Sequence record: OM632664.1
Length of the DNA stretch: 64,000 bases
Source of the DNA: Escherichia phage BEU5
Strand: one strand, 5' to 3'
Positions 1 to 64,000 of the stretch are shown piece by piece. The notes under the pieces were generated by a model. It worked only from the letters and a program-made list of their open reading frames with translations, ran no database searches and was not told where the DNA came from. The translations under genes and the position numbers were made by a program. Position 1 is the first letter of the stretch. Every line of letters starts with the position of its first letter.

Positions 1-8
1 TCCGTGAA

Positions 9-506: not shown

Positions 507-513
507 GGTCTGT

Positions 514-3788: not shown

Positions 3789-4123
3789 CCAAACAAATTG
3801 AAGAGAAAAAGCATCACTGGTTAGTAGCAGCTCAACTGACTTTTGTTATTCCTGATAACAAAGATGGTCAGGAAGGTGCTGTTATTGTTCAGAACACTAT
3901 GTTGCTTACTGAAGAGAAACAGGTAACTTTCCGTGACCTGGGACGTGCTCAGTCTGCTCTGTTTCAGAATCTGAATGACCGTTTTGGTCAAGTGGTAGAT
4001 GTACGGGATATTGTATTCCTGAACGTCAGCTACCTGGGTCATATGAGTCAGCCTGACTTTCAGCAAAATCTGGTAACTAAAGATACTGCTGCGAAGAAAG
4101 CTAAACTGAAAGCTGTGGAGTAA
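3785..4123 (+). CDS. hypothetical protein
   Basis: 112-aa ORF; ATGA overlap with polymerase stop; co-oriented. Confidence 0.55.
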   Translation: MTKQIEEKKHHWLVAAQLTFVIPDNKDGQEGAVIVQNTMLLTEEKQVTFRDLGRAQSALFQNLNDRFGQVVDVRDIVFLNVSYLGHMSQPDFQQNLVTKDTAAKKAKLKAVE

Positions 4124-4125
4124 TC

Positions 4126-5705: not shown

Positions 5706-7849
5706 TTGACCTGACCGGAGTCTCACATCATCCGGCGATTGAAGAAATCGTTGATGTGTTATGTAACAAGACGCAAAACACTGACCGTGGTTTTTTCCGT
5801 GTAGAAGTGGCCTATTTCCTTGCGAAAATGGCTTCATGTATGGGTGCAACTATCATCACTAAAGACCGTGGTGAAATTCCAGTAAACATCTATGCAGTGG
5901 CTCTTGCTACTTCAGGCTTCGGTAAAGGCCATTCGGTCAACATTGTTGAAGACGGTTTTATGGCTGGCTTTAAGAAGCGGTTTATGGAAGACACCATGCC
6001 TGCTTTAGCAGAAGACCGTCTGTGGAAAATTGCTAACGAACGTTCTGCTCGTAATGCTACTGACCAGAAGGAAGAGTTTGACAAGGTGGAAGCTGAATAC
6101 AGACGTACGGGTGCTTATCCATTTACGTTTGACTCAGGTACACCTCCTGCTGTGAAACAGTTACGTCATAAACTCTTATTAGCTGGATGTGGTGCTATTA
6201 ACTTACAGATTGATGAGATTGGTTCAAACCTTCTCGCTAATGCTGATGTATTAACTGTGTTCCTTGAGTTGTACGACCAAGGCAAGATTAAACAGAAACT
6301 TACTAAGAATACTGCTGAAAGTATTCGTAGTGAGGAAGTTGATGGTAAAACTCCAGCTAACCTTCTTCTGTTTGGTACACCGAGCAAACTTCTCAATGGG
6401 AGCCAGACTGAGGAACTCTTCTATGACTTCCTTGATACTGGCTATTCTCGTCGTTGTCTGTTTGCTGTAGGTCAGGCAGATAAACGTGCATATCTGAGCC
6501 AGAGTGCTGAAGAAATCTATCGTAATCTGATTAAGCAGGATAACAATGCTGTTGTGAATAAGTGGGCTAACCACTTTCATAGCCTTGCAGATGCATCCAA
6601 GTTTGGTTGGAAAATGACAGTTGAAGATGATGTTGGTATTGCACTAATCGATTACAAGATTCAGTGTGAAAAACAAGCAGCAGCTTTAGCTGACCACGAA
6701 GAGATTCGTAAAGCAGAATTGGAACATCGCTATTTTAAAGCACTGAAATTGGCAGGTGCATTTGCATTTGTTGATAACAGTATTATGGTAGAGATGGAAC
6801 ATCTGAAGCAAGCAATCCTTCTGGTAGAAGAATCTGGTGTTGCATTCCAGACTATCCTCAATCGTGAAAAAGCCTACGTTAAATTAGCCAAGTATATTGC
6901 ATCTGTTGGTACTGAAGTTACTCATGCAGATTTGCTTGAGGCTTTACCATTCTATAAGAGTGGGAATGCTGCACGTAATGAGATGATGACTTTAGCTACT
7001 GCATGGGGCTATAAGCAGCATATCATCATTAAGAAGACATACAACGAAGGTATTGAGTTCTTCCGTGGTGAGACACTGAAAGAGACTGATACTAACGAAA
7101 TGATTGTTTCTTATGGTGAGAACTTTGCTTATGACTATATTGCAGAGAAAGTTCCATTTGACCAGTTACATGTACTAACCCAGCAAGCAGGTTATCACTG
7201 GGCTAACCACCATTTCCGTCGAGGGCATCGTGCTGAAGAGAATGCTATTGCTGGCTTCAATATGATTGTCATTGATGTGGATGGTACGTGTAGTTTGGAC
7301 GTGTGCCATGAATTGATGAAAGAATACCGATTCATGACATATACAACCAAACGCCATACTGATGAAGAAAACCGTTTCCGGTTAATTATTCCAATGAACT
7401 ATCAGCTTGAACTTGATGGCGCTGAATATAAAGAGTTCATGGATAACGTTATGGCATGGCTCCCATTTAAAACGGACGAGTCTGCTAATCAACGAGCCAA
7501 GAAATGGGAATCATGTGCTAAGGGTACGTATTACTACAATATGGATGCTCCCCTGCTAGACGTAAGAGATTTCATTCCTAGAACCAGTAAGAATGAGGCA
7601 TTCCAGCAAGGGATGCAGAAGGTTCAGAATCTGGATAATCTCGAACGTTGGTTTGCCCAACGAATTGCTACAGGCAATCGTAATAACCACATGATTAAGT
7701 ATGCTCTGGCTCTGGTAGATAGTGGTATAGGCTTCAATGAAGTTAAACAACGTGTGCATGAGTTCAATAAGAAACTCAGCAATCCCCTATCTGCTGATGA
7801 ACTGGATTCCACTGTAATGATTACTGTGGCTAAACGTTACACATCTTAA
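5702..7849 (+). CDS. putative replication protein (primase-like DxD motif)
   Basis: 715 aa; NMIVIDVDG motif; position matches the N4 gp43 primase slot (between polymerase and SSB). Family not verified. Confidence 0.4.
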   Translation: MIDLTGVSHHPAIEEIVDVLCNKTQNTDRGFFRVEVAYFLAKMASCMGATIITKDRGEIPVNIYAVALATSGFGKGHSVNIVEDGFMAGFKKRFMEDTMPALAEDRLWKIANERSARNATDQKEEFDKVEAEYRRTGAYPFTFDSGTPPAVKQLRHKLLLAGCGAINLQIDEIGSNLLANADVLTVFLELYDQGKIKQKLTKNTAESIRSEEVDGKTPANLLLFGTPSKLLNGSQTEELFYDFLDTGYSRRCLFAVGQADKRAYLSQSAEEIYRNLIKQDNNAVVNKWANHFHSLADASKFGWKMTVEDDVGIALIDYKIQCEKQAAALADHEEIRKAELEHRYFKALKLAGAFAFVDNSIMVEMEHLKQAILLVEESGVAFQTILNREKAYVKLAKYIASVGTEVTHADLLEALPFYKSGNAARNEMMTLATAWGYKQHIIIKKTYNEGIEFFRGETLKETDTNEMIVSYGENFAYDYIAEKVPFDQLHVLTQQAGYHWANHHFRRGHRAEENAIAGFNMIVIDVDGTCSLDVCHELMKEYRFMTYTTKRHTDEENRFRLIIPMNYQLELDGAEYKEFMDNVMAWLPFKTDESANQRAKKWESCAKGTYYYNMDAPLLDVRDFIPRTSKNEAFQQGMQKVQNLDNLERWFAQRIATGNRNNHMIKYALALVDSGIGFNEVKQRVHEFNKKLSNPLSADELDSTVMITVAKRYTS

Positions 7850-7907
7850 CAGAAACTATTCAGTCCTTTTCTTGGTTGAAGAGGACTGTTAGTTAAAAGA
7901 GGAAACT

Positions 7908-8663
7908 ATGTCAGAAGAATTTGAACATGGCGAAATGAATGACCAGCTAATCCTGATTGTAGGATTTTCTGCTGCTGGTAAATCGGCCTCACTTCGTAAC
8001 ATTCGTAACCAGGAACGTTGGGTATATCTGAATACAGAAGCTGGTAAACGTCTGCCATTTAAGAATAACTTCAATGGTGTTCGTATTACTGACCCATACC
8101 AAATTCTGGAATACTTTGACCAATGCATTGAACATCGTGATGACGTGGACGGAATCATTGTAGATTCCCTGACTTTCATGATGGATATGCTGGAAACTCA
8201 GTATGTACTCACTGCTGCAAACACTCAGAAGGCTTGGGGTGAATTTGCACAGTTCTTCAAAATTCTCCTTCAGGAGAAAGTAGTTAAATTTGCCAAGCCA
8301 GTTATTTTCACTGCTCACGTCAAAGACGAAGTAGATGAACGTGCAATGGAACTGAAGACTTTCGTTCCAGTAAAAGGTTCTCTGAAGAACAATGGTATTG
8401 AAGCATACTTCTCTACTGTTGTATCAGCAGAACGTATCGACCTTAAAGAACTTGAAAAGTATTCCAATGGAATGTTGGAAATTACTGAGGATGAACAAGA
8501 GTTAGGGTACAAACACGTATTCCAGACTCGACCTACTAAGAAAACAGTAGGTAAACGTATCCGTTCTCCTATGGGTATGTTCAGTAAGCAAGAGACTTAT
8601 ATGGACAATGACGCCCAAAAACTTCTCGACCATCTGGCAGAGTATTACTCTACCGGTGCTTAA
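7908..8663 (+). CDS. P-loop ATPase (RecA-like / AAA_24-like)
   Basis: Walker A GFSAAGKSAS and Walker-B-like GIIVDSLT; RBS-like AGAGGAAA upstream. Confidence 0.5.
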   Translation: MSEEFEHGEMNDQLILIVGFSAAGKSASLRNIRNQERWVYLNTEAGKRLPFKNNFNGVRITDPYQILEYFDQCIEHRDDVDGIIVDSLTFMMDMLETQYVLTAANTQKAWGEFAQFFKILLQEKVVKFAKPVIFTAHVKDEVDERAMELKTFVPVKGSLKNNGIEAYFSTVVSAERIDLKELEKYSNGMLEITEDEQELGYKHVFQTRPTKKTVGKRIRSPMGMFSKQETYMDNDAQKLLDHLAEYYSTGA

Positions 8664-8708
8664 TCTGGTTGTTAATCATTCATTAATTTAATTAAGTAGG
8701 AAATATAA

Positions 8709-9506
8709 ATGAGCAATTTATTCGGAAATCTGGCAGGTCAGGCAGCTAAAGCAGAGAAAGCAACGGATAACCTGGGTGGTGGATTTGGTGCAAAAGAATC
8801 TGATATTTATTTGGCTAACCTGAAAGTAGCTTATGCAGGTAAAGCAGCTTCTGGTGCTAACTTCATTCAGATTATTGCAGACCTGACTGACCTTAATGGA
8901 CACAGTGCTGGTGAATACCGTGAGCAACTGTACATCACTTCTGGTACTGAAAAAGGCTGCAAGTGTACTTATGAAAAGAATGGTAAGGAATACTTCCTGC
9001 CGGGCTACACTGTAATCAATGACATCCTGGTAATGACTTCTGGTGAGACTATTCCTGAAGCAGTCTTCGAAGAGAAAGTCGTTAACGTATATGACTTCGA
9101 TGAGAAGAAAGAAGTTGCCAAATCTGTCATGGTTCCAGTCAATGCTATCGGTGGTAAGTTTGCTGTAGCTATTCTGAAATCTGAAGAAGATAAGCAGACT
9201 AAAGATGGCTCCGGTAACTATGTGTCTACTGGTGAAACTCGCTTCACTAATACCATCGAAAAAGTATTCCATCCTGACCTGCATCTGACTGTTGTTGAAG
9301 CAGAAGAACTGACTGAACGTGGTAAAGAACTGACCGTTGAAGAAGCAGTCTTCTGGGACAAATGGCTGGAGAAAAACAAAGGCGTTACCCGTGATAAAAC
9401 CACTAAAGGCGGTGCTTCCGGTAAAGCTGGTCAGCCACCAAAACCAGGTGCTACTAACACTGGTGCGGGTGCTTCTGCTGCAAAATCTCTGTTCGGTAAG
9501 AAATAA
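8709..9506 (+). CDS. putative single-stranded DNA-binding protein (N4 SSB-like by position and size)
   Basis: 265 aa, Gly/Ala/Lys-rich; position between replication genes and resolvase as in N4. No OB-fold motif verifiable by eye. Confidence 0.45.
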   Translation: MSNLFGNLAGQAAKAEKATDNLGGGFGAKESDIYLANLKVAYAGKAASGANFIQIIADLTDLNGHSAGEYREQLYITSGTEKGCKCTYEKNGKEYFLPGYTVINDILVMTSGETIPEAVFEEKVVNVYDFDEKKEVAKSVMVPVNAIGGKFAVAILKSEEDKQTKDGSGNYVSTGETRFTNTIEKVFHPDLHLTVVEAEELTERGKELTVEEAVFWDKWLEKNKGVTRDKTTKGGASGKAGQPPKPGATNTGAGASAAKSLFGKK

Positions 9507-10063
9507 TGCAGATACCTGTGCTTGGAGTTGACCCCAGTTTTCGTAACTGGGGACTAGCACGGGGAATGCTCGACTTAGAGACGGGAATACTCTCTGGATT
9601 AAACCTGAAGCTGGTAGAAACCAAACCTGATGGAACCAAGCAAGTAAGGCAAAACAGCAAAGATATGCAAGCTGCCGAGGATATTACTGCTGGTGTCATC
9701 GACTGGTTCAAAGAAGCAAAGGTCATCTTTGTAGAGGTTCCCGTTGGTTCACAAAGTGCCAATGGAATGAAATCCTATGGTGTTTGTGTAGGCATCTTAG
9801 GAGCACTTAGGGCACTAGGACATGAGATTATTGAGGTTACTCCCATCGAGAACAAAGTAGCTCTGTCCGGTATTAAGACTGCTTCTAAAGATGTGATGAT
9901 TAGAGCAGCTACAGGATTTTATCCAGAGGCCAACTGGCTCAAGGATACCAAAGGTAGGCTACTCAATAAGAACGAGCATTTAGCTGATGCTGTAGGTGCT
10001 ATCCATGCAGGGGTACTCACTCCTGCTTTCCAGAATTTAATGAGAATTTTATCAAAGGTATAA
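9506..10063 (+). CDS. RuvC-like Holliday junction resolvase
   Basis: N-terminal VLGVDPSFRNWGLA matches the RuvC/YqgF catalytic-Asp motif; 185 aa. Confidence 0.6.
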   Translation: MQIPVLGVDPSFRNWGLARGMLDLETGILSGLNLKLVETKPDGTKQVRQNSKDMQAAEDITAGVIDWFKEAKVIFVEVPVGSQSANGMKSYGVCVGILGALRALGHEIIEVTPIENKVALSGIKTASKDVMIRAATGFYPEANWLKDTKGRLLNKNEHLADAVGAIHAGVLTPAFQNLMRILSKV

Positions 10064-10065
10064 CA

Positions 10066-38430: not shown

Positions 38431-45004
<6,574 letters not shown>

Positions 45005-46597
45005 TCACACAATATATGAAGAGAGTGGGTTAACACTTCCAGTATCATCACCATCATCCCACAATGGGTCACCTGATGTATTAACTGGAACCATACCTGC
45101 TTGTGGTTTCCACGGGTTCAGGTAGCCAAGCATTGAAATGGTATCAATACAGTCATCCTTACCTTTAAGACCATTGATAGTGGCTAAACGAATTTGCCCC
45201 ATAAAGAGTGTCATGATTGGGCTATCTTTCATCTCAGCAGGAAAATACATCTTACCAGCTTTGAACCAGGGAACCACGAGGTTAAACCTTGATAGCTTAC
45301 TGGTTACAGGATGAATACCCGGTTGGCCTCCACGACTGGATGCAAAGTTAAAGAACACATTACGGTTAAGCATTTCCTTCTGAAGAAGAGAAATAAAACC
45401 ACCTTGCTGTCCGGTAGTTTCTACACCAACTTGTTGTGGTTGGTATTCCTGAACCAGACGGAATAAGTCATCAAAGTTCTTATCCATAGTTTGACGGCAA
45501 GCAATACCATCTACCCAGAACCAGTCACCGTTAGAACCATATGCCCATACTGATATTACAGAGTAGTCAGATACCTGCTTCTCACTAGTAGCAAAGTCAG
45601 TAGTGATATAAAAGTTATAACAAGAACGTAGACGTAATAGCTGCGTACGGGAATACCATTTAATCTCTGAATCTTGAATCAGACGTTCATCTTCAGAGCT
45701 GATACGTAACATCAATTCCTGATAAAAGGATGCCAGCTTACCTGTCTTCAATGCCATCTGGTATTGGTCATTGATGTAGTCATAGGAGAAACGGTCTTCC
45801 CAAGCACCTTGAAATTCTTCTCGCGTACATGGGAATTTCTCACATACAGGCCATACGTTGACATCCCAAGCACCGGATTCAACTGCTTCAATAAGAATAT
45901 CTTCCTTATTAAAGGGAGTACCATTAAAGATTACCTTACGTCTTGTTGGGTCGAGAGCATGGTTCACACCCTTATATACCGTGTCTTTAATGGCTTCCAT
46001 TGATGTACGTGAGCGAGCATCATCATCACTAACTAAGTCATCCAGTACACACAGAACAGGACGTTTACCAAAAATCTTAGTACCGCGAAGACCCGTCTTA
46101 GCACCAAACATCTTCACACCAAGACGGTGACCTTCAGCATTTACAAACTCAAGGTAGTTATCTGTGAAGGTAGCTTTAGGAATCCATTGTTGCAGGAATG
46201 GTGAATTGTTGTATCGAAACTCAATGTTCTTACGGGCAGACTTAACACCGTTATCCATAGAGTCAGACACATAAATCATTCCTTCTACTTTACCCAAGCT
46301 AGGTAGATGCCCAAACACTGCTAAGAACAAAGTAAAGTATTCCATGAACAGAGTTGTCTTTGCTGCACCACGGAAACATAAGTTAGCAATGTACTGATTC
46401 TTACTGGTTATCTTATCCAGCATTTTTAAGTGAACAGGAGGGGTTTTGTTTGATTCCCCCTCCTTACCATTAACCAGCTTAATAAAGTTAGCAAAGGTCA
46501 GTGCAAACTCGGTTGGTATATACGTAGGGGTATTCAGAACGGAATAGTCCACTTGGTCTAGCCATTCATCCAACTCCTGTTTAATTAGTTCAGACAT
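45005..46597 (-). CDS. terminase large subunit
   Basis: Walker-A-like CFRGAAKTTLF and Walker-B-like VLCVLDDLVSDDD; start placed at ATG 46597 (GAGGA RBS), coupled to the upstream stop. Confidence 0.7.
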   Translation of the reverse strand: MSELIKQELDEWLDQVDYSVLNTPTYIPTEFALTFANFIKLVNGKEGESNKTPPVHLKMLDKITSKNQYIANLCFRGAAKTTLFMEYFTLFLAVFGHLPSLGKVEGMIYVSDSMDNGVKSARKNIEFRYNNSPFLQQWIPKATFTDNYLEFVNAEGHRLGVKMFGAKTGLRGTKIFGKRPVLCVLDDLVSDDDARSRTSMEAIKDTVYKGVNHALDPTRRKVIFNGTPFNKEDILIEAVESGAWDVNVWPVCEKFPCTREEFQGAWEDRFSYDYINDQYQMALKTGKLASFYQELMLRISSEDERLIQDSEIKWYSRTQLLRLRSCYNFYITTDFATSEKQVSDYSVISVWAYGSNGDWFWVDGIACRQTMDKNFDDLFRLVQEYQPQQVGVETTGQQGGFISLLQKEMLNRNVFFNFASSRGGQPGIHPVTSKLSRFNLVVPWFKAGKMYFPAEMKDSPIMTLFMGQIRLATINGLKGKDDCIDTISMLGYLNPWKPQAGMVPVNTSGDPLWDDGDDTGSVNPLSSYIV

Positions 46598-47282
46598 CAA
46601 TAATATCCTCGTCTTCTCGAACCAGTGTGGAACCTGCAATTACTTTAGTAGGTGTACCAGCTTCAATAGCTGCTTTCTGAGCTTCAGCCAACTGGGTTAG
46701 TGTATTCTTGAGTTCAGTCAATCCAGAGTTTTCTCTCAAATCCAGATTGATATTAGTAACAGCATCCTTCGGTTTCTGGAGGTGAGTAAGGATAGAGTTG
46801 GCAGCATCACACTGTACCTTCTCACTGGTAGCATTCTTCATGAGCCATGCCTGATGGTTCAATGCTTCCTGAAACAAATCCTGATTAACAATCCATACTG
46901 GAATCAGTGATTGTTCCATAATGAGGTTTACTAACTTACCTCTATGGTAAGCAGATACATAAGCAGAGATGTCCTTCTCACTGGTTCCTCTTGCTACTAA
47001 TTCAGCTTGTCTGTTGGGGAATGTTTTGAAATAAGCATCTTTGTTACTATACCCCATGTGTTTGTAAGTAACATATTGAACAGCATTAAGATAATCCTGG
47101 GTCTTAAACTTCCCATCCTTCATCACCCCAGCATAAGTCACAAAGTTATTTCTAATTTGCTCTGCTGCTGTCTGGTCTTGGGTCACATTGTTAATCATGT
47201 TTACCAGTTGGTCAGTAACACTGCTTTTAAACTGGGGAGGCAATGCAGAAACAATGTCTTTCTTAGTCAGTAGTGTGCTCAT
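46590..47282 (-). CDS. hypothetical protein, possible small terminase (by position only)
   Basis: 230-aa ORF directly upstream of the large terminase. Confidence 0.35.
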   Translation of the reverse strand: MSTLLTKKDIVSALPPQFKSSVTDQLVNMINNVTQDQTAAEQIRNNFVTYAGVMKDGKFKTQDYLNAVQYVTYKHMGYSNKDAYFKTFPNRQAELVARGTSEKDISAYVSAYHRGKLVNLIMEQSLIPVWIVNQDLFQEALNHQAWLMKNATSEKVQCDAANSILTHLQKPKDAVTNINLDLRENSGLTELKNTLTQLAEAQKAAIEAGTPTKVIAGSTLVREDEDIIDV

Positions 47283-47409
47283 AGTCTTCCTACAAATTAT
47301 CTAGAGTGAAGAGGATTCTTTTCTTGGGGTTAGCACCCCTTGCAGAAACCTATACATAGATTTAGACTTTAGACTTTCTTTAGTCTCCTTACAATAGTAA
47401 GACAGAGAC

Positions 47410-47751
47410 ATGGGGAGCCTATTGCCCAAAGGAACCAGTAACATGAGGCTATTCTATAGTTTTGACGGTAATGACCAATGGAATGAGATAGACTTCAGTA
47501 AAATAGGTGGAGCTATCCCAGTTGGAGGGGCTATACCAGGTGACCATATCTTATGTCACGATGAGGAGTCTTTCCATTACATCTCAGGTATGATGTTAAT
47601 CAATAACGTCACTGGGTTTACTGTCCATAAACCTGCACCAGTACGTGTCATTACCAAGCCTATCGAGGGTCTTGCATTCTTTACAAGAATACCTCAAAGT
47701 ATCTCTATCAAACGACAGCGTGACGCCATCGAGATGACCGTGGTTGCTTGA
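47410..47751 (+). CDS. hypothetical protein
   Basis: 113-aa ORF, first plus-strand gene after the divergent junction. Confidence 0.45.
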   Translation: MGSLLPKGTSNMRLFYSFDGNDQWNEIDFSKIGGAIPVGGAIPGDHILCHDEESFHYISGMMLINNVTGFTVHKPAPVRVITKPIEGLAFFTRIPQSISIKRQRDAIEMTVVA

Positions 47752-47914
47752 TAAGCCATTGCCCGCCCAGGAGTTGGTGGCGGGAAACAGGGAACTGTTT
47801 GAATAACCACTTCAGCTACATTCACCTATCTCCAAGACACCTTTGTTATCTGCCATTGGGTGATGAGTAGTATCAGAGAGAACTGATTTAACAAACACAC
47901 TCGGTATAGGAATT

Positions 47915-47942
47915 GGGAGCCATTTGGCTCCCTTTTTCTTTT
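47915..47942 (+). terminator. rho-independent terminator
   Basis: Stem GGGAGCC/GGCTCCC with loop ATTT, then TTTTTCTTTT. Confidence 0.65.
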
Positions 47943-47961
47943 ATGAACCAAGGAGTTCTAT

Positions 47962-48327
47962 ATGAACATTCGTCCTAATGAAGTCTATGGTATCAACCTA
48001 GAGTACACTACAAACAAACCTGCTCTATTTCACTGTGGTTCCACCAATCTATTCCATGCTATGTGTGGTAATACCAAACCTCTTTACTTACCTGAATCGG
48101 ATGATACCCATGCTCTACTAGGTAACTGGTTCTTAGAAGGTAAAGACATTAGTACCATTCTTCTTGAACCAAGGAAGAAAGTGGCAATACCTACTAATGC
48201 ATGGAATAACGAAGTCATTTACTTCCTGGCACCAAAAGGCTTTGAACCAGTGGTAGAACAGAATCACTTTAATCATGCAGTTACTTTCTACTTCAGAGAG
48301 ACTTCAAAGTTATCTGCTTATAAATAA
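47962..48327 (+). CDS. hypothetical protein
   Basis: 121-aa ORF with AAGGAG RBS. Confidence 0.55.
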   Translation: MNIRPNEVYGINLEYTTNKPALFHCGSTNLFHAMCGNTKPLYLPESDDTHALLGNWFLEGKDISTILLEPRKKVAIPTNAWNNEVIYFLAPKGFEPVVEQNHFNHAVTFYFRETSKLSAYK

Positions 48328-48335
48328 GGAAAGCT

Positions 48336-48473
48336 ATGTGGTATATAACAGTTAAAGGTTTATCCGAACCAGTGATGATAGATAGCCTGGCCTTCATAGA
48401 AGTAGGTCATCCTATTCTTATAGAAGGTAAGTTGTATGAAGTTGTTAGTATTTATAAGAGATAAATAGGAAGT
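48336..48473 (+). CDS. possible small protein (45 aa), not in ORF track
   Basis: ATG preceded by AAGGA; ends TAA at 48471-48473. Confidence 0.25.
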
Positions 48474-48630
48474 CTATTAGATAGATACCCTATAATTTTT
48501 TTCTTAGTGAAAATAGTCATAGTTACTTGTGAGTTTAGTATTTGGTGGGGCTACACCCCTTACACCATAAGCACCCCCCCCGGTCTTTACTAGTGTAGCC
48601 TTAGCCTACCCCACCTTGTACACGTTACAC

Positions 48631-48650
48631 GTTGCTTCGCAACTTATGGA
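48631..48650 (+). promoter_or_regulatory. hairpin promoter candidate (N4 vRNAP early-promoter type)
   Basis: GTTGC-TTC-GCAAC (5-bp stem, 3-nt loop; template-strand loop GAA) followed by TTATGGA; a G lies 11 nt downstream of loop centre. Confidence 0.5.
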
Positions 48651-48694
48651 CATGTTGTCCGTATCTTATCAATCAACTATTGGAGGCTAATACT

Positions 48695-49021
48695 ATGACT
48701 ACTCAGGCTAACGTTCGTATGACTGTAGGAACTCTGTTGGGTACTGTTAATGAAGCAGCAACTACTGTAGCTGATACATTCGGTACTGCTACTAAAGCAG
48801 TAGGTATGCTTAATCGTTATGTAACTAAACAAGCAGATAAACAAATCATTCGTGACAAATTAGAAATGCATGAGTTTACCAATAAACTTATTGAAGAAAC
48901 TGCAATGCAAGAAGCTATTCGTCAGAAACAAATCTTAGACTTCTGCAAAGATGAACAAAACAAAGAATTGTTCTCTAATGCCTATGACCGTCTTAGCAAA
49001 ATCTTAGCAGACTCTAAATAA
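48695..49021 (+). CDS. early protein, hypothetical
   Basis: Start at ATG 48695 (GGAGG RBS) downstream of the hairpin promoter; 108 aa. Confidence 0.55.
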   Translation: MTTQANVRMTVGTLLGTVNEAATTVADTFGTATKAVGMLNRYVTKQADKQIIRDKLEMHEFTNKLIEETAMQEAIRQKQILDFCKDEQNKELFSNAYDRLSKILADSK

Positions 49022-49097
49022 TAACAAACAAATGGAGGCTCCTCGGAGTCTCCTTTTACATAGAACCGATAGTTCAATAACTATCTACTTTAAAGAT

Positions 49098-49119
49098 AAG
49101 AAGCTCCGCTTCTTTTGGA
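49098..49119 (+). promoter_or_regulatory. hairpin promoter candidate (N4 vRNAP early-promoter type)
   Basis: AAGAAGC-TCC-GCTTCTT (7-bp stem, 3-nt loop; template loop GGA) followed by TTGGAT; G at +11 from loop centre. Confidence 0.5.
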
Positions 49120-49225
49120 TGAAGTAATGCATCCAATCCTGTATGAAATCTTAACCTTTTGTCTGGGATTACTTACCGACAAAGTAGTCTCAACTAATCA
49201 AAATCAACTATCTGGAGAGTACAAA

Positions 49226-49612
49226 ATGGCTATCACTACTTTTGCTAAAACCTTTGGTCAGGCTTCTACTAAAACTGAATCCAACAATGGTTCTCGCCCG
49301 AAAGCTCAGTTCTGGATTAACGTTGGCTATGTAGCTAATGAAGGCACTGAAGATGAACGTTTCATCTCTCTGCCTACTGGTATTCCACTGGATACTCAGG
49401 AGCATCTGCCAACCAATTCCTCTAACGAAGACTTCCGTGCAATGCGTTGTGCACAGAACGATTTGTTAGACCAACTGATGGAATTTGCTAAGACTCTGGA
49501 ACCAGGTCAGGAAGGAGTTATCTCACTGCAAGTTCAACTTCGTCGAGTTAAAGAAGAAGCTCCTGCTATCTCAGCAAGTGAGAATAAATATGCTCGTAAA
49601 CTGACTTTCTAA
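49226..49612 (+). CDS. early protein, hypothetical
   Basis: Start at ATG 49226 (GGAGAG RBS); the track start at 49115 would precede the predicted transcription start. Confidence 0.5.
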
Positions 49613-49620
49613 TCTCTATA

Positions 49621-49650
49621 GGACTACCTTCGGGTAGTCCTTTTTAATTT
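49621..49650 (+). terminator. rho-independent terminator
   Basis: Stem GGACTACC/GGTAGTCC with loop TTCG, then TTTTTAATTTT. Confidence 0.75.
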
Positions 49651-49754
49651 TAACTATCTAAATACTAAAGTAGAGATTTTGACCCTTTTCGACGAAGGGA
49701 TACTAAAAAGTAATGGATAGTTTGAGCAGATGTTTTAGAAGAAGGAGTATACAG

Positions 49755-50069
49755 ATGCATCCTCTTATAAAACGATTCCTGATGGACTATCAGGAGTGGT
49801 TAGATAATGGAGCCAGTGAACCTCATTACCTGTTTGATAGGGGTAGTGGACTGTGTGTTCAACTAGGCAAGTATCTTAGAAGACAGCCAATCAGTGAAGA
49901 AACAGTAGATGCTCTGTGTAAGAGCTTTACTCATTTACTTCCTGATAATGATACAAATCTACCATTCAATGTAGATGTTCTCGACTACATGATGGAGTGT
50001 TCTGATGGAAGATGTCATCTGAACCAAAGTCGAATTAATTGGATTAAGAGTCAGTTGGAGAGTAAGTAA
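49755..50069 (+). CDS. hypothetical protein
   Basis: ATG 49755 with AAGGAG RBS; 104 aa. Confidence 0.5.
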   Translation: MHPLIKRFLMDYQEWLDNGASEPHYLFDRGSGLCVQLGKYLRRQPISEETVDALCKSFTHLLPDNDTNLPFNVDVLDYMMECSDGRCHLNQSRINWIKSQLESK

Positions 50070-50072
50070 ATT

Positions 50073-58478: not shown

Positions 58479-59537
58479 ATGGCTAGTATTGATTCTATTG
58501 CCGTATGTAATCCACGGCAGGTACGTAAATTTGTTGAACACTGTATCCGTTCAGGATTGGTTCCATTTATCACTTCATCTCCTGGTATGGGTAAATCTGC
58601 AATTGTTCATCAGATTGCAGAAGACTTTGGCCTGAAACTGATTGACCATCGTCTGTCTACTTCAGCACCAGAAGACCTGTCAGGTCTGCCTCGTTTTAAA
58701 GAAAATGGTCGTGCTGAATTTGCTCCATTTGACGAGCTATTCCCACTGGAAGGGGATACTGTACCTGAAGGATTTAATGGCTGGCTTCTCTTTCTCGATG
58801 AGTTTAACTCTGCTCGTAAAGAGATTCAGGCTGCTGCTTATAAATTGGTACTCGACCGTATGACTGGTCAGAAGAAGCTACATCCTTATGTAGCTATCGT
58901 ATGTGCTGGTAACAAAGCAACTGACCGTGCCATTACTAATAACCTGTCTACAGCTATGCAATCACGTCTTATTCATCTGGAAATGGAGACTGATTTTGAT
59001 GTCTTTATGGAAGATGTAGCTATCCCTAACAAATGGGATGAGCGTGTAATTGCATTCCTGAATGCTAACCCAAATAAACTGAATGATTTTGAACCAGACC
59101 ATCAAGAGAAGACTTTCTGTTGTTCTCGTACATGGGAGTTCGTTAACAAGATTGTTTCCATTCTCCCACCGGGACCGATTGATAGTGAAATGACTCTGCT
59201 ATTAGCAGGCACTATCACCTCTGGTGTAGCAACATCATTCGTCCAGTTTACTCAGGTCTATAGCAACATGGTGTCTTTGAATGAGATTTTGGATAATCCT
59301 AAGAAAGCTCGTATGCCTGAAGACAATAACCTGTTGTGGGCTGTAGTCACTTCACTGATTAACAATACTGACGAAGATAATCATTCGAAAATCTTTGATT
59401 ACGTTGAACGTATGCCATTTACGTTCAAGGTTTTGTACTACCGTTCCGTAGGTAGTCTGGTTCCAGCTTTGGTTAAATTACCGAACTGGCGTGTTGCTGC
59501 AATCACATTATCTAAATACGTTCATGGTTCCAATTAA
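58479..59537 (+). CDS. MoxR-like AAA+ ATPase
   Basis: Walker A SSPGMGKSAIV, Walker B LLFLDEFNSA (MoxR-type DExN), sensor VCAGNKATD. Confidence 0.65.
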   Translation: MASIDSIAVCNPRQVRKFVEHCIRSGLVPFITSSPGMGKSAIVHQIAEDFGLKLIDHRLSTSAPEDLSGLPRFKENGRAEFAPFDELFPLEGDTVPEGFNGWLLFLDEFNSARKEIQAAAYKLVLDRMTGQKKLHPYVAIVCAGNKATDRAITNNLSTAMQSRLIHLEMETDFDVFMEDVAIPNKWDERVIAFLNANPNKLNDFEPDHQEKTFCCSRTWEFVNKIVSILPPGPIDSEMTLLLAGTITSGVATSFVQFTQVYSNMVSLNEILDNPKKARMPEDNNLLWAVVTSLINNTDEDNHSKIFDYVERMPFTFKVLYYRSVGSLVPALVKLPNWRVAAITLSKYVHGSN

Positions 59538-59703
59538 CAAGAAAGGAGTTACAGACCTCCTGTATGTTGCTGGCTTTAACGGTGAAAAAATTACCGTATA
59601 TGCCCCAAGTCTGGCTGCTGCTAAACAAAAGGCAGTTGAATACTTTCGTCCAAAGAAACGTGTAGCCCATACCATTTGGGTTCATCTCGCAGAGGAAAAC
59701 TGA
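59524..59703 (+). CDS. hypothetical small protein
   Basis: Internal Met of track ORF 59491..59703, chosen to limit overlap; no clear RBS. Confidence 0.3.
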   Translation: MVPINKKGVTDLLYVAGFNGEKITVYAPSLAAAKQKAVEYFRPKKRVAHTIWVHLAEEN

Positions 59704-59704
59704 T

Positions 59705-60847
59705 ATGTCCATGACAGATGCTCAATTAACCCGTGAATATGACAGATGTCAGGCTAAAGCCTTTATGGGCAAAACTGCTGCATTCTTTGGTTCACTGTTA
59801 TGTTCTCTGAAGTTCCGTTGGGTAAAAGATGGCTGTGATACAGCACAAACCGATGGTGAGCATCTCGAATGGAATCCTGATTGGTTTGAGAGTCTATTAC
59901 CTGAATCTCGTGTAACAGTACTCATGCATGAACTATGGCATGTCGGCTTACTGCATTCTGTTCGTATGGGTTCTCGTGACCCAGAAGTATGGAATTATGC
60001 CTGTGATATTTATATCAACAATCAGCTTATTCAGGATGGCTACAGCTTTATAGGAATCGAAAATTGCTGGAAAGACTCTAAGTATGCTGGTTGGGCTGAA
60101 GAACAAATCTATGATGACCTCATGAGCAAACAGATACGTCCTCCTAAAGCATCAGGTGCTTTTGGGGCTGGCTCAGGTGGTGACATGAAACCTTCCACTT
60201 CGAAGGCTAGTCAGGTAAATATTGTCAATAATGTAGTAAGAGCCATGCACCAACAGAAACTATCTGGTGGTTCTTTGCCTGGGGTATTACCTGGAAAAAT
60301 GGAAGAAGTTATTACTCAATTCCTGAAACCAGTAGTACCGTGGCAGGTCTTACTTGAACGCTTCTTCAATGACCTGCAAGAAACTTACTACTCATGGCAA
60401 CGGCCTAATCGTAGATACCCTGATATGTACCTACCATCTCCTATGGATGATGACGGTAGACTGGAACATCTGGCTTATTTCCTCGATACATCTGGCTCCA
60501 TTAAACCTAAAGATGCTTTACGCTTTAGCTCTGAAGTGGCCTATGTAAAAGAGAAATACCAGCCTCAGAAGATGACTCTAGTTCAGTTCACTACAGAGAT
60601 TGTAGATGAACAAGTCATTGAAGATGGTGATAAGTTTACTGATGTCACTATCAAAGGACGGGGTGGTACTAGTCTGGTTCCTGTACGTGAGTGGATTATT
60701 AAGCATAAGCCTACTGCTGCCATTATCTTTACTGACTTAGAAGTCAGACCGATGGAGCCATTGCCATTTGACATTCCTGTCATATGGGTAGTTATTCGTA
60801 ACCCTGGTGCACAAGTTCCATTTGGGAAAGTTATTAACATTACATGA
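59705..60847 (+). CDS. VWA-domain protein with N-terminal HExxH metallopeptidase-like motif
   Basis: LMHELWHVGLLH (HExxH) in the N-terminal half; MIDAS-like FLDTSGSI in the C-terminal half; directly downstream of the MoxR-like ATPase. Confidence 0.55.
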   Translation: MSMTDAQLTREYDRCQAKAFMGKTAAFFGSLLCSLKFRWVKDGCDTAQTDGEHLEWNPDWFESLLPESRVTVLMHELWHVGLLHSVRMGSRDPEVWNYACDIYINNQLIQDGYSFIGIENCWKDSKYAGWAEEQIYDDLMSKQIRPPKASGAFGAGSGGDMKPSTSKASQVNIVNNVVRAMHQQKLSGGSLPGVLPGKMEEVITQFLKPVVPWQVLLERFFNDLQETYYSWQRPNRRYPDMYLPSPMDDDGRLEHLAYFLDTSGSIKPKDALRFSSEVAYVKEKYQPQKMTLVQFTTEIVDEQVIEDGDKFTDVTIKGRGGTSLVPVREWIIKHKPTAAIIFTDLEVRPMEPLPFDIPVIWVVIRNPGAQVPFGKVINIT

Positions 60848-60853
60848 GGTTTT

Positions 60854-61360
60854 ATGGTTGTTAATGGAAAACTATTGTTAGGTGCTATACCCATTAAGGG
60901 CATGGTTAACAGTAAACTCAGTTCAGGTGAGACTACATTTGGACTGGGAGAAGCTGGTTATGACATCCGTATTAAACAGGATGTTACCTTCTACCGATTT
61001 CTTGGTTTGATTCCCTGCATCAAGATTAAGGATGAAGGAAAGACCAAGTGGAAGTTTGGCACTTTCACATTAGCTTCTGCAATGGAACGTTTCAATGTAC
61101 CTGCTGGCCTAGTGGGTATTGTCCATGACAAATCTACATGGGCAAGGCGTACATTATCTGTATTTAATACCGTTATTGAACCAGGATGGTCAGGCTATCT
61201 GACTTTAGAACTGGTTTATCACGGTCGTAAAAAACTTCATATCCCTGCTGGTTCAGGTATTGCTCAGGTCATCTTCCATGAGACAGTAGAGAATACTACC
61301 TACAATGGACGATACCAGAACCAGCCTAATCAACCTGTAGCTGCTAAGTCAGCTCGTTAA
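60854..61360 (+). CDS. dcd: dCTP deaminase (dUTPase-fold)
   Basis: GLVGIVHDKSTWARRTLSVFNTVIEPGWSGYLTLELV and IPAGSGIAQVIFHE match dCTP deaminase signatures. Confidence 0.65.
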   Translation: MVVNGKLLLGAIPIKGMVNSKLSSGETTFGLGEAGYDIRIKQDVTFYRFLGLIPCIKIKDEGKTKWKFGTFTLASAMERFNVPAGLVGIVHDKSTWARRTLSVFNTVIEPGWSGYLTLELVYHGRKKLHIPAGSGIAQVIFHETVENTTYNGRYQNQPNQPVAAKSAR

Positions 61361-61373
61361 TTAAGGAAATATC

Positions 61374-61574
61374 ATGTCTATCTTTACTACTAAGGTTAAT
61401 GGTCAGAAAGTTACTGTTGTTGCTCGTAACGTAGCTTACGTTACTGAAAACAGTGAAGGCCGTGGTGTAATTACTTTTACTAACGGTGATTCCATTGATA
61501 CCCAGGTAGGTTATGACTCTATCCGTCGTAACGTAGCTAAAGCACTTGATGGTGCTAAAGACATCGCAGAGTAA
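61374..61574 (+). CDS. hypothetical protein
   Basis: 66-aa ORF; TTAATTAAGGAAAT upstream. Confidence 0.45.
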   Translation: MSIFTTKVNGQKVTVVARNVAYVTENSEGRGVITFTNGDSIDTQVGYDSIRRNVAKALDGAKDIAE

Positions 61575-61649
61575 GGTGTTTACAGTAATGGGGCTATATA
61601 GTAGCCCCATTTATGGAAATTCCTTTCTCCATTGCTTAGTCCCAACTAT

Positions 61650-61672
61650 GCCCACTTTATGTGGGCTTTTTT
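61650..61672 (+). terminator. rho-independent terminator
   Basis: Stem GCCCAC/GTGGGC with loop TTTAT, then TTTTTT. Confidence 0.75.
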
Positions 61673-61687
61673 AATTAGAGACTATGT

Positions 61688-61930
61688 ATGAGCAAACTAG
61701 GTATACACGTTTACATAGATGAAGCCGAGAAGATATACCCCTATACATTATTTAGTTCCAGTGATTTACTTCAGATGAAGGTAAACTCCATCATCGTAAA
61801 CTACTGGTATAACGATAAGAATTGGGATTACTGGGCTGCACGACAGAAGAGTAAGAACAAGAAAGATATATTCAAAAGCAAATCAACTCCACATATGTTT
61901 CCTTGGTATCACAGAAACCGGAGATATTGA
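61688..61930 (+). CDS. hypothetical protein
   Basis: 80-aa ORF. Confidence 0.45.
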   Translation: MSKLGIHVYIDEAEKIYPYTLFSSSDLLQMKVNSIIVNYWYNDKNWDYWAARQKSKNKKDIFKSKSTPHMFPWYHRNRRY

Positions 61931-62391
61931 TGACAAGAATACCATTTTTAAAACCTAGAAAACGAACACCAAAGCTGTATCAAAAGACCTCAGAAGACGG
62001 TTTAGCCTTGAACCAGAAAGCTATTAAGGCCGTTAGTACACTGGTTCAAGGTAAACAGGATGCTGTTGCTTTACGTCTTGTTGTTGAGCAAATCTTAGTT
62101 GCTCTGACACTGGCTCAAGTAGCTAAACAAGAAGGTAAACAAGAAACCTGTAAAACAGCATTAGGTGCTTTGTACTGGTTGTATAAAGACCTTGCTGACA
62201 ACTTTGAAATGTCTATGGATAAGTGGCAGGGCATTTCTTGTGTACTTGCTCTTAGAGAAGGACAGGAATTACTGTCTACTCTACCAAAAGCAGAATTTAA
62301 ACTAGCCTACACTGGAGCACATAAGATTGTTCTTGGTTCCAGTAAGGACATCTTTAACCACCTCAAGCTATTCAAGGCTTTCTATGATTAA
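61930..62391 (+). CDS. hypothetical protein
   Basis: ATG 61930 in a TGATG overlap with the upstream stop; GGAG RBS; 153 aa. Confidence 0.45.
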   Translation: MTRIPFLKPRKRTPKLYQKTSEDGLALNQKAIKAVSTLVQGKQDAVALRLVVEQILVALTLAQVAKQEGKQETCKTALGALYWLYKDLADNFEMSMDKWQGISCVLALREGQELLSTLPKAEFKLAYTGAHKIVLGSSKDIFNHLKLFKAFYD

Positions 62392-63325
62392 TGCAAAAAT
62401 CCTCGCTGATAGTATTACTCTTTCTGGTGACCGTCTGGTAACAATGGAGCTGGTTTATCCGCGTTTTATTCATTCAGAATTTATGACTCACCGAGCACTT
62501 AATCGTAATGCTTCCAGTAGTCGTGCTATTCCTACCCAACGCCTTATTGAGCAAGTTCGTAATGAACCAGTAATGCCAGTACATTGGGGTAAGAACCAGA
62601 AAGGAATGCAGGCAAGTGAAGAACTCACTCCTATGGAGATTAAGGATGCTGAGTTCATTTGGGAAAATGCTGCCTCTGCTGCTGCTGTGTATGCTGAACA
62701 ACTTCGTCGTGGACAAGTACATAAGCAGATTGTTAATCGTATTCTGGAACCATTCACGCATATCCGTGTAGTAGTGACAGCTACTCAATGGAATAACTTC
62801 TTTGGTTTACGTATCCATCCCGATGCTCAACCAGAGATTTGTGAATTGGCTACTAAGATGAAGGAACAGTATGACCAATCAAAACCCCGTACCTTGTTGG
62901 CTGGGGAATGGCATTTGCCGTACATTACTAATAGTGATTACCTCGATGCTTACGATTATTGCAAACATCAACGAATTACTCGTGATGAACCAAGTAGTGA
63001 TGAAATTAATTGCCTGTTAGTAAAAATCTCTGCTGCTCGTTGTGCCCGTGCTTCTTATAACAACTTTAAAGGCACTCCTTCTACTATCGAAGAAGACCTG
63101 CGTTTGTTCTCTAAATTGGTTGAAAGTAAGCCTGTTCACGCAAGTCCTACTGAACATCAAGCAACTCCTCAGCATGTAATGAGTAAAGGCTTAAATGAGC
63201 CTACTGACCCATCTACATGGGAAAATGGCATTAGCCACATGGACAGAAATTTACGTTTATACTCAGGTAATCTGTGTGGCTGGATTCAATTCCGTAAGCT
63301 GCTTGCAGATGAATGCATCCACTAA
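62384..63325 (+). CDS. thyX: ThyX-like flavin-dependent thymidylate synthase (candidate)
   Basis: HSEFMTHRALNRNASSSR and WNNFFGLRIHPDAQPEICELA resemble ThyX RHR...S..R and W..F..LR...AQ.EIRE motifs; neighbour of dCTP deaminase. Start at internal ATG 62384. Confidence 0.5.
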   Translation: MINAKILADSITLSGDRLVTMELVYPRFIHSEFMTHRALNRNASSSRAIPTQRLIEQVRNEPVMPVHWGKNQKGMQASEELTPMEIKDAEFIWENAASAAAVYAEQLRRGQVHKQIVNRILEPFTHIRVVVTATQWNNFFGLRIHPDAQPEICELATKMKEQYDQSKPRTLLAGEWHLPYITNSDYLDAYDYCKHQRITRDEPSSDEINCLLVKISAARCARASYNNFKGTPSTIEEDLRLFSKLVESKPVHASPTEHQATPQHVMSKGLNEPTDPSTWENGISHMDRNLRLYSGNLCGWIQFRKLLADECIH

Positions 63326-63370
63326 GTAGGTCTTTTGTGGGTGTAGACCACTCATAATAAACTCCGCTAT

Positions 63371-63398
63371 TTGCCTCCTACATGGAGGCAATTTTTTT
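63371..63398 (+). terminator. rho-independent terminator
   Basis: Stem TTGCCTCC/GGAGGCAA with loop TACAT, then TTTTTTT. Confidence 0.75.
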
Positions 63399-63422
63399 GA
63401 TTCCATGTACATAGGAGGCCAT

Positions 63423-63656
63423 ATGGCTAAACCACGTAAATTTCGTATTAAGGGTAAGCCTGTAATGGGTAGTGCTGCTGGTCAGTCACATGAGAAAGGA
63501 GACATTGTTTATGAATGCCTTCAGTATGATTACGGCGTTGCTCATGATGACACTCGTGCTACTGGTGTCCCACATACCTCAGTAACTCTTGAGGAAGATG
63601 GTAGCTACCCATTCTTCACTGTTCCTACTCATAACCTGGAAGAAATTCATGATTGA
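63423..63656 (+). CDS. hypothetical protein
   Basis: ATG 63423 with AGGAGG RBS; 77 aa. Confidence 0.5.
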   Translation: MAKPRKFRIKGKPVMGSAAGQSHEKGDIVYECLQYDYGVAHDDTRATGVPHTSVTLEEDGSYPFFTVPTHNLEEIHD

Positions 63657-63975
63657 CCCAAATATCATCCATGCCAAAACAGGCGAATCCCATAAGCTGT
63701 CTGAATATTCCAAAGTAGAAGATATTGCAGTTTGTCCTGCAAATATTGCTTCTCTTTGTATCTGTATTGCAGAGCTATCTAAAGAACGCCAACTATGGCT
63801 ATCTCCTAATAAAACAATGGTTCAGGCAGGTCTGGCAGAAGTACAACGTATGCTGGATGAATGGTCTGAAGACCAGATGTTCATTGATGGCAATGCAGAA
63901 GCAATAACCGATGACATGGCCTCTGATATGGCTGTGTTTGTATTACAAGCAATGGCTGAAAAGCGTAGTAGTTAA
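63649..63975 (+). CDS. hypothetical protein
   Basis: ATG 63649 overlapping the upstream stop; 108 aa. Confidence 0.45.
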   Translation: MIDPNIIHAKTGESHKLSEYSKVEDIAVCPANIASLCICIAELSKERQLWLSPNKTMVQAGLAEVQRMLDEWSEDQMFIDGNAEAITDDMASDMAVFVLQAMAEKRSS

Positions 63976-64000
63976 TTAATAATTTACTGGAGAAAATTCG

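What the first reader, a model, noticed from the sequence alone, without database searches (positions are those of the whole stretch)
47283..48694. Late/early divergence zone with poly-C tract and tandem repeats: likely physical genome terminus joined in this contig
Late genes end at 47282 on the minus strand. Only three short plus-strand ORFs follow, then an ORF-poor 360 bp containing a C8 homopolymer (48574-48581), tandem ACACGTT x2 (48622-48635) and AGACTTT x2 (47364-47377) before the first hairpin promoter. In N4-like phages the linear ends with direct terminal repeats sit between the late and early regions, so a contig continuous through here suggests a collapsed terminal repeat or concatemer junction.
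Basis: inference. Interest (0 to 1): 0.4.

Follow-up and report, generated by a model that had tools for sequence, protein, structure and literature searches.

The report
Coliphage N4 genome end, terminal repeat collapsed
This stretch is the already well-known place where the linear DNA of coliphage N4 begins and ends; the assembly has merged the roughly 410-base repeat found at both ends into one copy, so the finding is correct but ordinary.

Summary
The window is an isolate of coliphage N4 (100% identical to phages BEU44/BEU13, 98.3% to N4). The N4 reference record ends at window 48542 and starts at 48543, inside the flagged interval. Five relatives have known direct terminal repeats (DTR): KP8 404 bp, PBM-2 401, 24-32N 402, UE-S5a 401, and IME11 401 bp by read-start pile-up. 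All five repeats align to window 48541-48543 through 48952-48953. The window holds only one copy, so the repeat is collapsed, which is also the concatemer-junction form.

- The repeat runs about 258 bp past the interval, through early promoter P1 and 86 of the 108 codons of gp1.
- gp70-72 sit at the far right end of the virion DNA, so this is not a true late/early divergence.
- The C8 tract and the ACACGTT repeat lie inside the repeat. C8 is conserved across three genera and its length varies from C8 to C12. ACACGTT x2 sits just upstream of the P1 hairpin.
- AGACTTT x2 is a promoter-region element of gp70, 1.17 kb away, with no link to the ends.

No reads were available, so the ends are placed by homology only. 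This is already known biology (Ohmori et al. 1988) and of low interest.

The parts
46590..47282 (-). gp69, the first gene of the leftward late/packaging operon, directly upstream of the large terminase gp68 (45005-46639). Candidate small terminase subunit.
   Evidence: ORF list. N4 annotation gp69. phrog_2109, unknown function, E 5.5e-102; gp68 hits phrog_38, terminase large subunit. The KP8 homologue is annotated 'small terminase subunit'. That is the depositors' annotation only.
47283..47442 (.). Divergent gp69/gp70 intergenic region.
   Evidence: No variable site among 8 Enquatrovirus isolates. The repeat plus TACAAT is conserved in KP8 but not in Gamaleyavirus.
47443..47751 (+). gp70, a small ORF of unknown function at the right end of the virion genome. 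A longer reading starts at the ATG at 47410.
   Evidence: N4 annotation mapped onto the window. phrog_7213, E 4.6e-38.
47915..47942 (+). Intrinsic-terminator-like hairpin GGGAGCCATTTGGCTCCC followed by a T run, between gp70 and gp71.
   Evidence: Annotated as a terminator in the Jura, AL25 and SPSP records.
47962..48327 (+). gp71, a small ORF of unknown function.
   Evidence: phrog_9160, E 4.2e-48.
48336..48464 (+). gp72, a 42-aa ORF and the last gene before the right-hand copy of the terminal repeat.
   Evidence: phrog_19797, E 9.5e-31.
48465..48542 (.). Right-end unique non-coding stretch immediately upstream of the left-end cut site. Contains a perfect TATAAT (48491-48496) and a T7 run (48496-48502). 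Position 48542 corresponds to the last base of the N4 record (70153).
48543..48952 (.). Predicted direct terminal repeat, present once here (collapsed, or concatemer-junction form). The left genome terminus is at 48543 (+/-2). The right terminus is at about 48952. The published N4 repeat length of 390-440 bp corresponds to 48932-48982.
   Evidence: N4 record position 1 maps to 48543. DTRs of KP8, PBM-2, 24-32N, UE-S5a and IME11 map to 48541-48543 through 48952-48953. IME11 ends come from read-start pile-up (PMC3896407). N4 DTR of 390-440 bp is cited in PMC3715699. Single copy in the window.
48543..48567 (.). Terminal 25 nt, TGGTGGGGCTACACCCCTTACACCA. An imperfect inverted repeat that can fold back so that the end base is paired. 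Contains the motif TGGGG-N5-CCCCTT.
   Evidence: -5.1 and -5.3 kcal/mol, z about -1.2, not significant on its own. The core GGGGCTACACCC is invariant in 8 genomes of 3 genera. Motif statistics.
48574..48581 (+). Poly-C tract (C8), 32 nt inside the left end.
   Evidence: Only C/G run of 7 or more in 64 kb. At least C7 in Gamaleyavirus and Kaypoctavirus. Length C8-C12 among 8 Enquatrovirus records.
48619..48633 (+). TACACGT/ACACGTT x2 tandem repeat at about -29 to -15 of early promoter P1, overlapping the 5' arm of the hairpin.
   Evidence: TACACnnTACAC is conserved in all relatives.
48631..48648 (+). Early promoter P1 for the virion RNA polymerase: hairpin GTTGC-TTC-GCAAC (48631-48643), with the predicted start (+1) at G 48648.
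   Evidence: Sequence. Fold z = -3.0. Template-strand -11A, -10G, -8G and +1C match the published determinants (PMC4496689). The homologous KP8 site is annotated as early promoter P1.
48648..48660 (+). Second hairpin GGACA-TGT-TGTCC at the very 5' end of the predicted P1 transcript.
   Evidence: TATGGACATGTyGTCC is invariant in 8 genomes. Its role, possibly a 5' stem-loop on the mRNA, is inferred.
48695..49021 (+). gp1, the first early gene (108 aa). The repeat ends in about codon 86, so the right-end copy carries a truncated gp1.
   Evidence: phrog_5020, E 1.3e-46. gp1 is described as a cofactor of RNAPII in PMC4496689. Boundary mapping.
49034..49063 (+). Intrinsic terminator after gp1, outside the repeat.
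49100..49117 (+). Early promoter P2 hairpin GAAGC-TCC-GCTTC, with predicted +1 at G 49117. Outside the repeat.
   Evidence: Sequence. Determinants per PMC4496689.

Best explanation
The window is a circularly permuted assembly of an N4-species phage (Enquatrovirus).

Shown by homology:
- The left physical end of the virion DNA corresponds to window 48543 (+/-2 nt).
- The right physical end corresponds to about 48952. Published right-end heterogeneity in N4 would spread it over about 48932-48982.
- The stretch 48543 to about 48952 is therefore the roughly 410-bp direct terminal repeat. It is present twice in virion DNA and once in replicative concatemers and in this contig.
- In the virion, gp69 reads leftward, gp70-72 read rightward, and the right repeat copy forms the right end. 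The left repeat copy, holding the poly-C tract, promoter P1 and gp1 codons 1-86, forms the left end, which enters the cell first.

Inferred:
- The N4 terminase (gp68 large subunit, probably with gp69) cuts concatemers precisely at 48542|48543 and less precisely about 410 bp downstream.
- The repeat is duplicated by strand-displacement synthesis, as in T7-type phages.
- The invariant block TGGGGCTACACCC at the end and the poly-C tract belong to the cis signals for cutting or end-replication.
- The ACACGTT repeat belongs to the upstream part of the P1 promoter region.
For: - Identity: 100% to BEU44/BEU13 and 98.3% to N4 over 3.1 kb.
- The N4 record (linear, 70153 bp) has no repeat between its two ends. 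Its end/start junction maps to 48542|48543.
- Exact repeats between the two ends of the records: KP8 404 bp, PBM-2 401 bp, 24-32N 402 bp, UE-S5a 401 bp. KP8's 404-bp repeat is stated in PMC6950046.
- IME11: 401 bp from read-start pile-ups, at 62722 (forward) and 63123/63124 (reverse) (PMC3896407).
- All five repeats align to window 48541-48543 through 48952-48953.
- At least 16 listed records from three genera begin or end within about 10 nt of the homologous position.
- Cross-genus DNA homology starts at query base 1-6, which is the terminus, and stops at base 409-419.
- Literature: N4 has DTRs of 390-440 bp, a unique left end and several right ends (Ohmori 1988, cited in PMC3715699, PMC5557969, PMC3896407).
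- vRNAP promoters lie at the left end, which is injected first (PMC4496689).
- There is one copy only in the window and in the BEU44/BEU13 records.
- gp68 is a large terminase.
Against: - There is no direct evidence for this isolate. No reads, coverage or end-sequencing data are available, so the placement rests on homology to a 98%-identical reference and to relatives about 76-79% identical.
- I could not read Ohmori et al. 1988. That N4 record position 1 is the experimentally determined left end is inferred from convention, from the IME11 data and from the agreement of many records.
- How the DTRs of PBM-2, 24-32N and UE-S5a were determined was not checked.
- The G7C record annotates a 1160-bp stretch as 'contains terminal repeat', so repeat length can be uncertain or different in some relatives.
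- The mechanistic steps (who cuts, how the repeat is duplicated, roles of the poly-C and terminal motif) are inference. The terminal fold-back is not statistically significant.
Confidence: 0.9

Rival explanations
1. The terminus sits at the true strand-divergence point (gp69/gp70 intergenic, 47283-47442), and the AGACTTT repeat marks it.
For: The strand switch and GC-skew turn fall here. There is a tandem repeat and a conserved hairpin whose motif resembles the terminal motif.
Against: The N4 record and every relative with a defined DTR carry gp70-72 or their homologues between gp69 and the right repeat. No record starts or ends here. The repeat overlaps a sigma-70-like promoter for gp70 that is conserved in KP8.
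Confidence: 0.02
2. This isolate has no fixed ends (headful, circularly permuted packaging). The region is simply an intergenic regulatory zone, and the contig is continuous because the genome is permuted.
For: The contig reads through without a break. Several close relatives were deposited with arbitrary start points.
Against: N4 and IME11 have experimentally fixed ends with short DTRs. The isolate is 98.3% identical to N4 through the terminase and the junction. Assemblers routinely collapse short DTRs into apparently circular contigs (established knowledge).
Confidence: 0.03
3. The ends are where proposed on the left, but the repeat in this isolate differs substantially in length from about 410 bp. 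It could reach toward P2/gp2, as the 1160-bp 'contains terminal repeat' annotation of G7C might suggest.
For: G7C annotation. The N4 right end is heterogeneous in the literature.
Against: Five relatives, including close relatives of G7C, give 401-404 bp ending at the same aligned position. Cross-genus homology drops at base 409-419. The published N4 range is 390-440 bp.
Confidence: 0.05

Closest known systems
Genome ends of coliphage N4 (Ohmori, Haynes & Rothman-Denes 1988, J Mol Biol 202:1; record EF056009/NC_008720)
   Same: 98.3% identical sequence across the junction. The same gene order: gp69, gp70-72, end, P1, gp1, P2, gp2. The N4 record's first base aligns to window 48543.
   Different: Poly-C is C8 followed by G here, against C9 followed by T in N4. 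There are a few SNPs. Here the two ends are joined with one repeat copy because the contig is permuted. The ends of this isolate have not been measured.
401-404-bp direct terminal repeats of other Enquatrovirinae: IME11 (read pile-up), KP8, PBM-2, 24-32N, UE-S5a
   Same: The repeat starts at the homologous TGG(C)TGGGGCTACACCC motif. It contains poly-C, P1 and most of gp1, and ends at the homologous ...TTCTGCAAAGAT inside gp1.
   Different: Only about 75-79% DNA identity. Poly-C is C7. The flanking right-end ORFs differ in number.
T7/T3-type short exact direct terminal repeats
   Same: Non-permuted linear genome. A short repeat that is present once per unit in concatemers and must be duplicated at packaging (PMC5557969).
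   Different: N4-type ends are reported to have one precise end and one heterogeneous end, and 3' extensions. The repeat is longer (about 400 bp against 160-230 bp) and carries a promoter for a virion-borne RNA polymerase plus a partial gene.
N4 virion RNA polymerase hairpin promoters (P1, P2, P3)
   Same: 5-bp stem and 3-nt loop centred at -11. Template-strand -11 purine, -10G, -8G and +1C, at 48631-48648 and 49100-49117.
   Different: None detected. These are the N4 promoters themselves.

Membership tests
N4-type (Enquatrovirinae) genome terminus with short direct terminal repeat | Sequence homologous to the experimentally defined N4 left end at the junction | tested here: met
   The N4 record's end/start maps to 48542|48543 at 98% identity. 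The terminal motif GGGGCTACACCC is invariant in 8 genomes.
N4-type (Enquatrovirinae) genome terminus with short direct terminal repeat | The same roughly 400-bp stretch is present at both ends of virion DNA | not testable with these tools
   Only an assembled contig is available, with one copy. The repeat is inferred from relatives whose records carry both copies and from the IME11 read data.
N4-type (Enquatrovirinae) genome terminus with short direct terminal repeat | Position: between the small rightward ORFs downstream of gp69 and early gene gp1, with early promoter P1 inside the repeat | tested here: met
N4-type (Enquatrovirinae) genome terminus with short direct terminal repeat | One unique end, one heterogeneous end, and 3' single-stranded extensions | not testable with these tools
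   Needs virion DNA or reads. Literature only.
N4-type (Enquatrovirinae) genome terminus with short direct terminal repeat | N4-type large terminase encoded next to the junction | tested here: met
   gp68 at 45005-46639 hits phrog_38, terminase large subunit, E 6e-106. It is 98% identical to N4 gp68.
N4 vRNAP hairpin promoter | 5-7 bp stem and 3-nt loop centred at -11. Template-strand -11 A/G, -10 G, -8 G and +1 C | tested here: met
   P1 at 48631-48648 and P2 at 49100-49117, read directly from the sequence. Fold z = -3.0. Criteria from PMC4496689.
Headful (pac) circularly permuted genome | No fixed ends; terminal redundancy of variable sequence | not testable with these tools
   No reads. Argued against by homology to phages with fixed ends.

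The most novel reading that the evidence does not exclude
The conserved non-coding elements around the cut are cis-acting parts of the N4-type packaging or end-replication signal that have not been dissected. They are:
- the invariant terminal motif TGGGG-N5-CCCCTT;
- its only other copy in the genome, 1.2 kb upstream in the gp69/gp70 intergenic region;
- the poly-C tract 32 nt inside the end, which varies in length from C8 to C12.

For example, the two motif copies could be binding sites for the small terminase, and the poly-C could be a slippage-prone spacer that tunes cutting or priming.
Probability: 0.1. Interest if true: 0.35.

Novelty: already known. Interest (0 to 1): 0.1.

Why it matters
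The value is practical. It tells an annotator where to open this contig (base 48543) and that about 410 bp should be added at the right end, giving a virion genome of about 71.27 kb for a 70,857-bp assembly. It also shows that ORFs called across 48542|48543 (as in one relative's annotation) do not exist on virion DNA, and that the right end carries a second P1 promoter and a truncated gp1. It adds no new biology: the N4 ends have been known since 1988 and have been re-found by sequencing in relatives.

Tried and rejected
- Rfam scan of 46500-50500 at E<=1: only a sub-threshold L20_leader match (25.5 bits against a 58.7-bit gathering score) over the gp2 terminator. I treat it as chance.
- tRNA scan: none.
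- Pfam on gp69, gp70, gp71, gp72, gp1 and gp68: no hits. PHROGs gives only 'unknown function' for the small ORFs.
- Fold-back of the terminal 30 nt: it folds with the end base paired but is not better than shuffles (z -1.2). I do not rely on it.
- Fold of the right-end region 48920-48960: nothing (z +0.3).
- Search for a second repeat copy in the window: none.
- Attempt to read Ohmori et al. 1988 by PubMed id: not held. Its content is cited second-hand only.
- Number of 7-mer tandem duplications against shuffles: not enriched.
- AGACTTT repeat as a terminus feature: rejected because of its distance, its overlap with a promoter-like site, and conservation with a -10 element in KP8.

Full report
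**What the window is.** A 3.1-kb query across the finding matches Escherichia phages BEU44 and BEU13 at 100% identity. It matches PMBT57, Jura, AL25 and coliphage N4 (EF056009) at 98-99%. The window is therefore an isolate of Enquatrovirus N4. Compared with the N4 record, it is a permuted stretch. Window 1 corresponds to N4 22308, window 48543-64000 to N4 1-15459, and window 44888-48542 to N4 66500-70153.

**Check of the observation.** Details are in the observation check; in short:
- gp69 (46590-47282, minus strand) starts at 47282. It is followed on the plus strand by gp70 (47443-47751, or from 47410), gp71 (47962-48327) and gp72 (48336-48464), as in the N4 annotation.
- The non-coding gap before gp1 (48695-49021) is 230 bp (48465-48694).
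- C8 is at 48574-48581, as stated. AGACTTT x2 is at 47364-47377, as stated. ACACGTT x2 is at 48620-48633, 2 nt left of the stated position.
- C8 is the only C or G run of 7 or more in the 64 kb, against about 0.17 expected.
- The two exact 7-mer tandem duplications are the only ones in the window, but 3.5 +/- 2.1 are expected by chance. As a count they are unremarkable.

**Where the ends are.**
- The N4 record is linear and has no repeat between its two ends. Its last base aligns to window 48542 and its first base to 48543, inside the flagged interval.
- Four relatives carry both repeat copies in their records: KP8 404 bp, PBM-2 401 bp, 24-32N 402 bp and UE-S5a 401 bp. KP8's repeat is stated in PMC6950046.
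- For IME11, read-start pile-ups at 62722 (forward) and 63123/63124 (reverse) gave a 401-bp repeat (PMC3896407).
- I aligned all of these to the window. The first repeat base falls at 48541-48543 and the last at 48952-48953.
- In a sensitive search with 48543-48982, cross-genus homology begins at query base 1-6 and ends at 409-419. At least 16 listed records begin or end within about 10 nt of the homologous position.
- N4 itself is described as having repeats of 390-440 bp, one precise end and several alternative positions for the other. This is Ohmori et al. 1988 as cited in PMC3715699, PMC5557969 and PMC3896407. That range corresponds to window 48932-48982.
- The window and the BEU44/BEU13 records contain only one copy of this stretch. 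The repeat is collapsed, which is also the form expected at a concatemer junction.

- Poly-C lies 32 nt inside the left end and within the repeat. It is at least C7 in Gamaleyavirus and Kaypoctavirus genomes. Among eight Enquatrovirus records its length is C8, C9, C10 or C12. It is the main indel site of the 1.85-kb alignment. I cannot tell whether this is real slippage or homopolymer sequencing error.
- The ACACGTT repeat lies at about -29 to -15 of early promoter P1. The form TACACnnTACAC is conserved in all relatives.
- P1 is the hairpin GTTGC-TTC-GCAAC (48631-48643), with predicted +1 at 48648. On the template strand it has -11A, -10G, -8G and +1C, the published determinants for the virion RNA polymerase (PMC4496689). 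The region folds significantly better than shuffles (z -3.0). The homologous KP8 site is annotated as P1.
- P2 (GAAGC-TCC-GCTTC, 49100-49112, +1 at 49117) lies outside the repeat.
- AGACTTT x2 (TTTAGAC x2 in another register) lies 1.17 kb from the end, in the gp69/gp70 intergenic region. It overlaps the -35 of a sigma-70-like site, TTTAGA-16-TACAAT (47368-47395). It is conserved together with that -10 element in KP8 but not in Gamaleyavirus. I read it as a promoter or operator element of gp70, unrelated to the ends.

**Consequences of the mapping.**
- The repeat contains P1 and gp1 codons 1-86 of 108. The right end of the virion DNA therefore carries a second P1 pointing off the end, plus a truncated gp1 (sequence; inference).
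- gp70-72 belong to the extreme right end and gp1 to the extreme left end. The 'late/early divergence zone' exists only in the permuted contig or in the concatemer.
- The physical genome of a 70,857-bp assembly would be about 71.27 kb (inference).

**Mechanism.**
- Shown by homology: the position of the ends, the extent of the repeat, the promoter, and the large terminase next door (gp68, phrog_38).
- Inferred from established knowledge of phages with short exact repeats (PMC5557969): concatemers carry one repeat per unit; the terminase cuts precisely at 48542|48543 and about 410 bp downstream; the repeat is duplicated by synthesis from staggered nicks.
- gp69 sits directly upstream of the large terminase and is annotated as the small subunit in KP8. 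It is a candidate recognition subunit, but it has no family assignment here.
- The terminal 25 nt can fold back with the last base paired. This fits second-hand statements that inverted repeats at the 3' ends may prime replication (PMC3896407). The fold is not statistically distinguishable from shuffles.

**Comparison with the known, and verdict.** This is the N4 genome terminus itself, in a 98%-identical isolate. Membership features that can be tested on sequence are met. Features that need virion DNA (two copies, overhangs, end heterogeneity) cannot be tested here. The repeat boundary and the role of the listed repeats needed correcting. Novelty: already known. Interest: low.

**Side observations.**
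- The motif TGGGG-N5/6-CCCCTT occurs exactly twice in the 64 kb, at the left end and in the gp69/gp70 intergenic region. About 0.05 matches are expected, and 0 of 100 shuffles gave two. Both copies are present in Enquatrovirus and Gamaleyavirus.
- A 702-bp insertion carrying an HNH/NUMOD4 endonuclease ORF splits the DNA polymerase gene relative to N4.

Noticed in passing
window 2343-3044 (ORF 2381-2995): A 702-bp insertion relative to N4 lies inside the DNA polymerase gene (N4 gp39). The polymerase reads as two ORFs (427-2478 and 2958-3788). The insert encodes a 204-aa protein with HNH_3 and NUMOD4 motifs, a homing endonuclease. There is no Rfam intron hit. The insertion accounts for the 70,857-bp against 70,153-bp genome size.
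   Followed up: partly
window 47325-47341 and 48546-48561: TGGGG-N5/6-CCCCTT occurs only twice in the 64 kb, both on the plus strand: 4 nt inside the left genome end, and in the gp69/gp70 intergenic region. About 0.05 matches are expected, and 0 of 100 shuffles gave two or more. Both copies are conserved in Enquatrovirus and Gamaleyavirus. The intergenic copy is degenerate in KP8. Function unknown.
   Followed up: partly
window 48574-48582 and 48496-48502: Poly-C length differs among eight near-identical isolates: C8, C9, C10 and C12. The following base is G in the window and BEU13, and T in the others. The T run upstream is T7 in the window and BEU13 and T6 in the others. This could be real slippage or homopolymer sequencing error.
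   Followed up: partly
window 48648-48660: A second 5-bp-stem, 3-nt-loop hairpin, GGACA-TGT-TGTCC, starts exactly at the predicted +1 of P1. It is invariant across three genera. It may be a 5' stem-loop of the first early mRNA.
   Followed up: partly
window 48491-48496: A perfect TATAAT with no recognisable -35 lies about 50 nt upstream of the left-end cut, pointing toward the junction. CTATAAT plus a T run is conserved in Gamaleyavirus. It was not picked up by the promoter scan.
   Followed up: no
L011 (IME11 62722-63124) against window 48541-48952: In N4 gene orientation, IME11's single sharp read-start peak is at the right end of the repeat, and the double peak 1 nt apart is at the left end. 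This is the opposite of how N4 is described (left unique, right heterogeneous). The paper labels ends in its own contig orientation.
   Followed up: no
Closely related Gamaleyavirus genomes have repeats of 401-402 bp that start at the same motif. The G7C annotation is probably an upper bound, not the true repeat.
   Followed up: no
L016 (AlfredRasser locus 1224-1409): One relative has an annotated 186-nt ORF spanning the position homologous to the physical genome end. Such an ORF would be interrupted on virion DNA.
   Followed up: no
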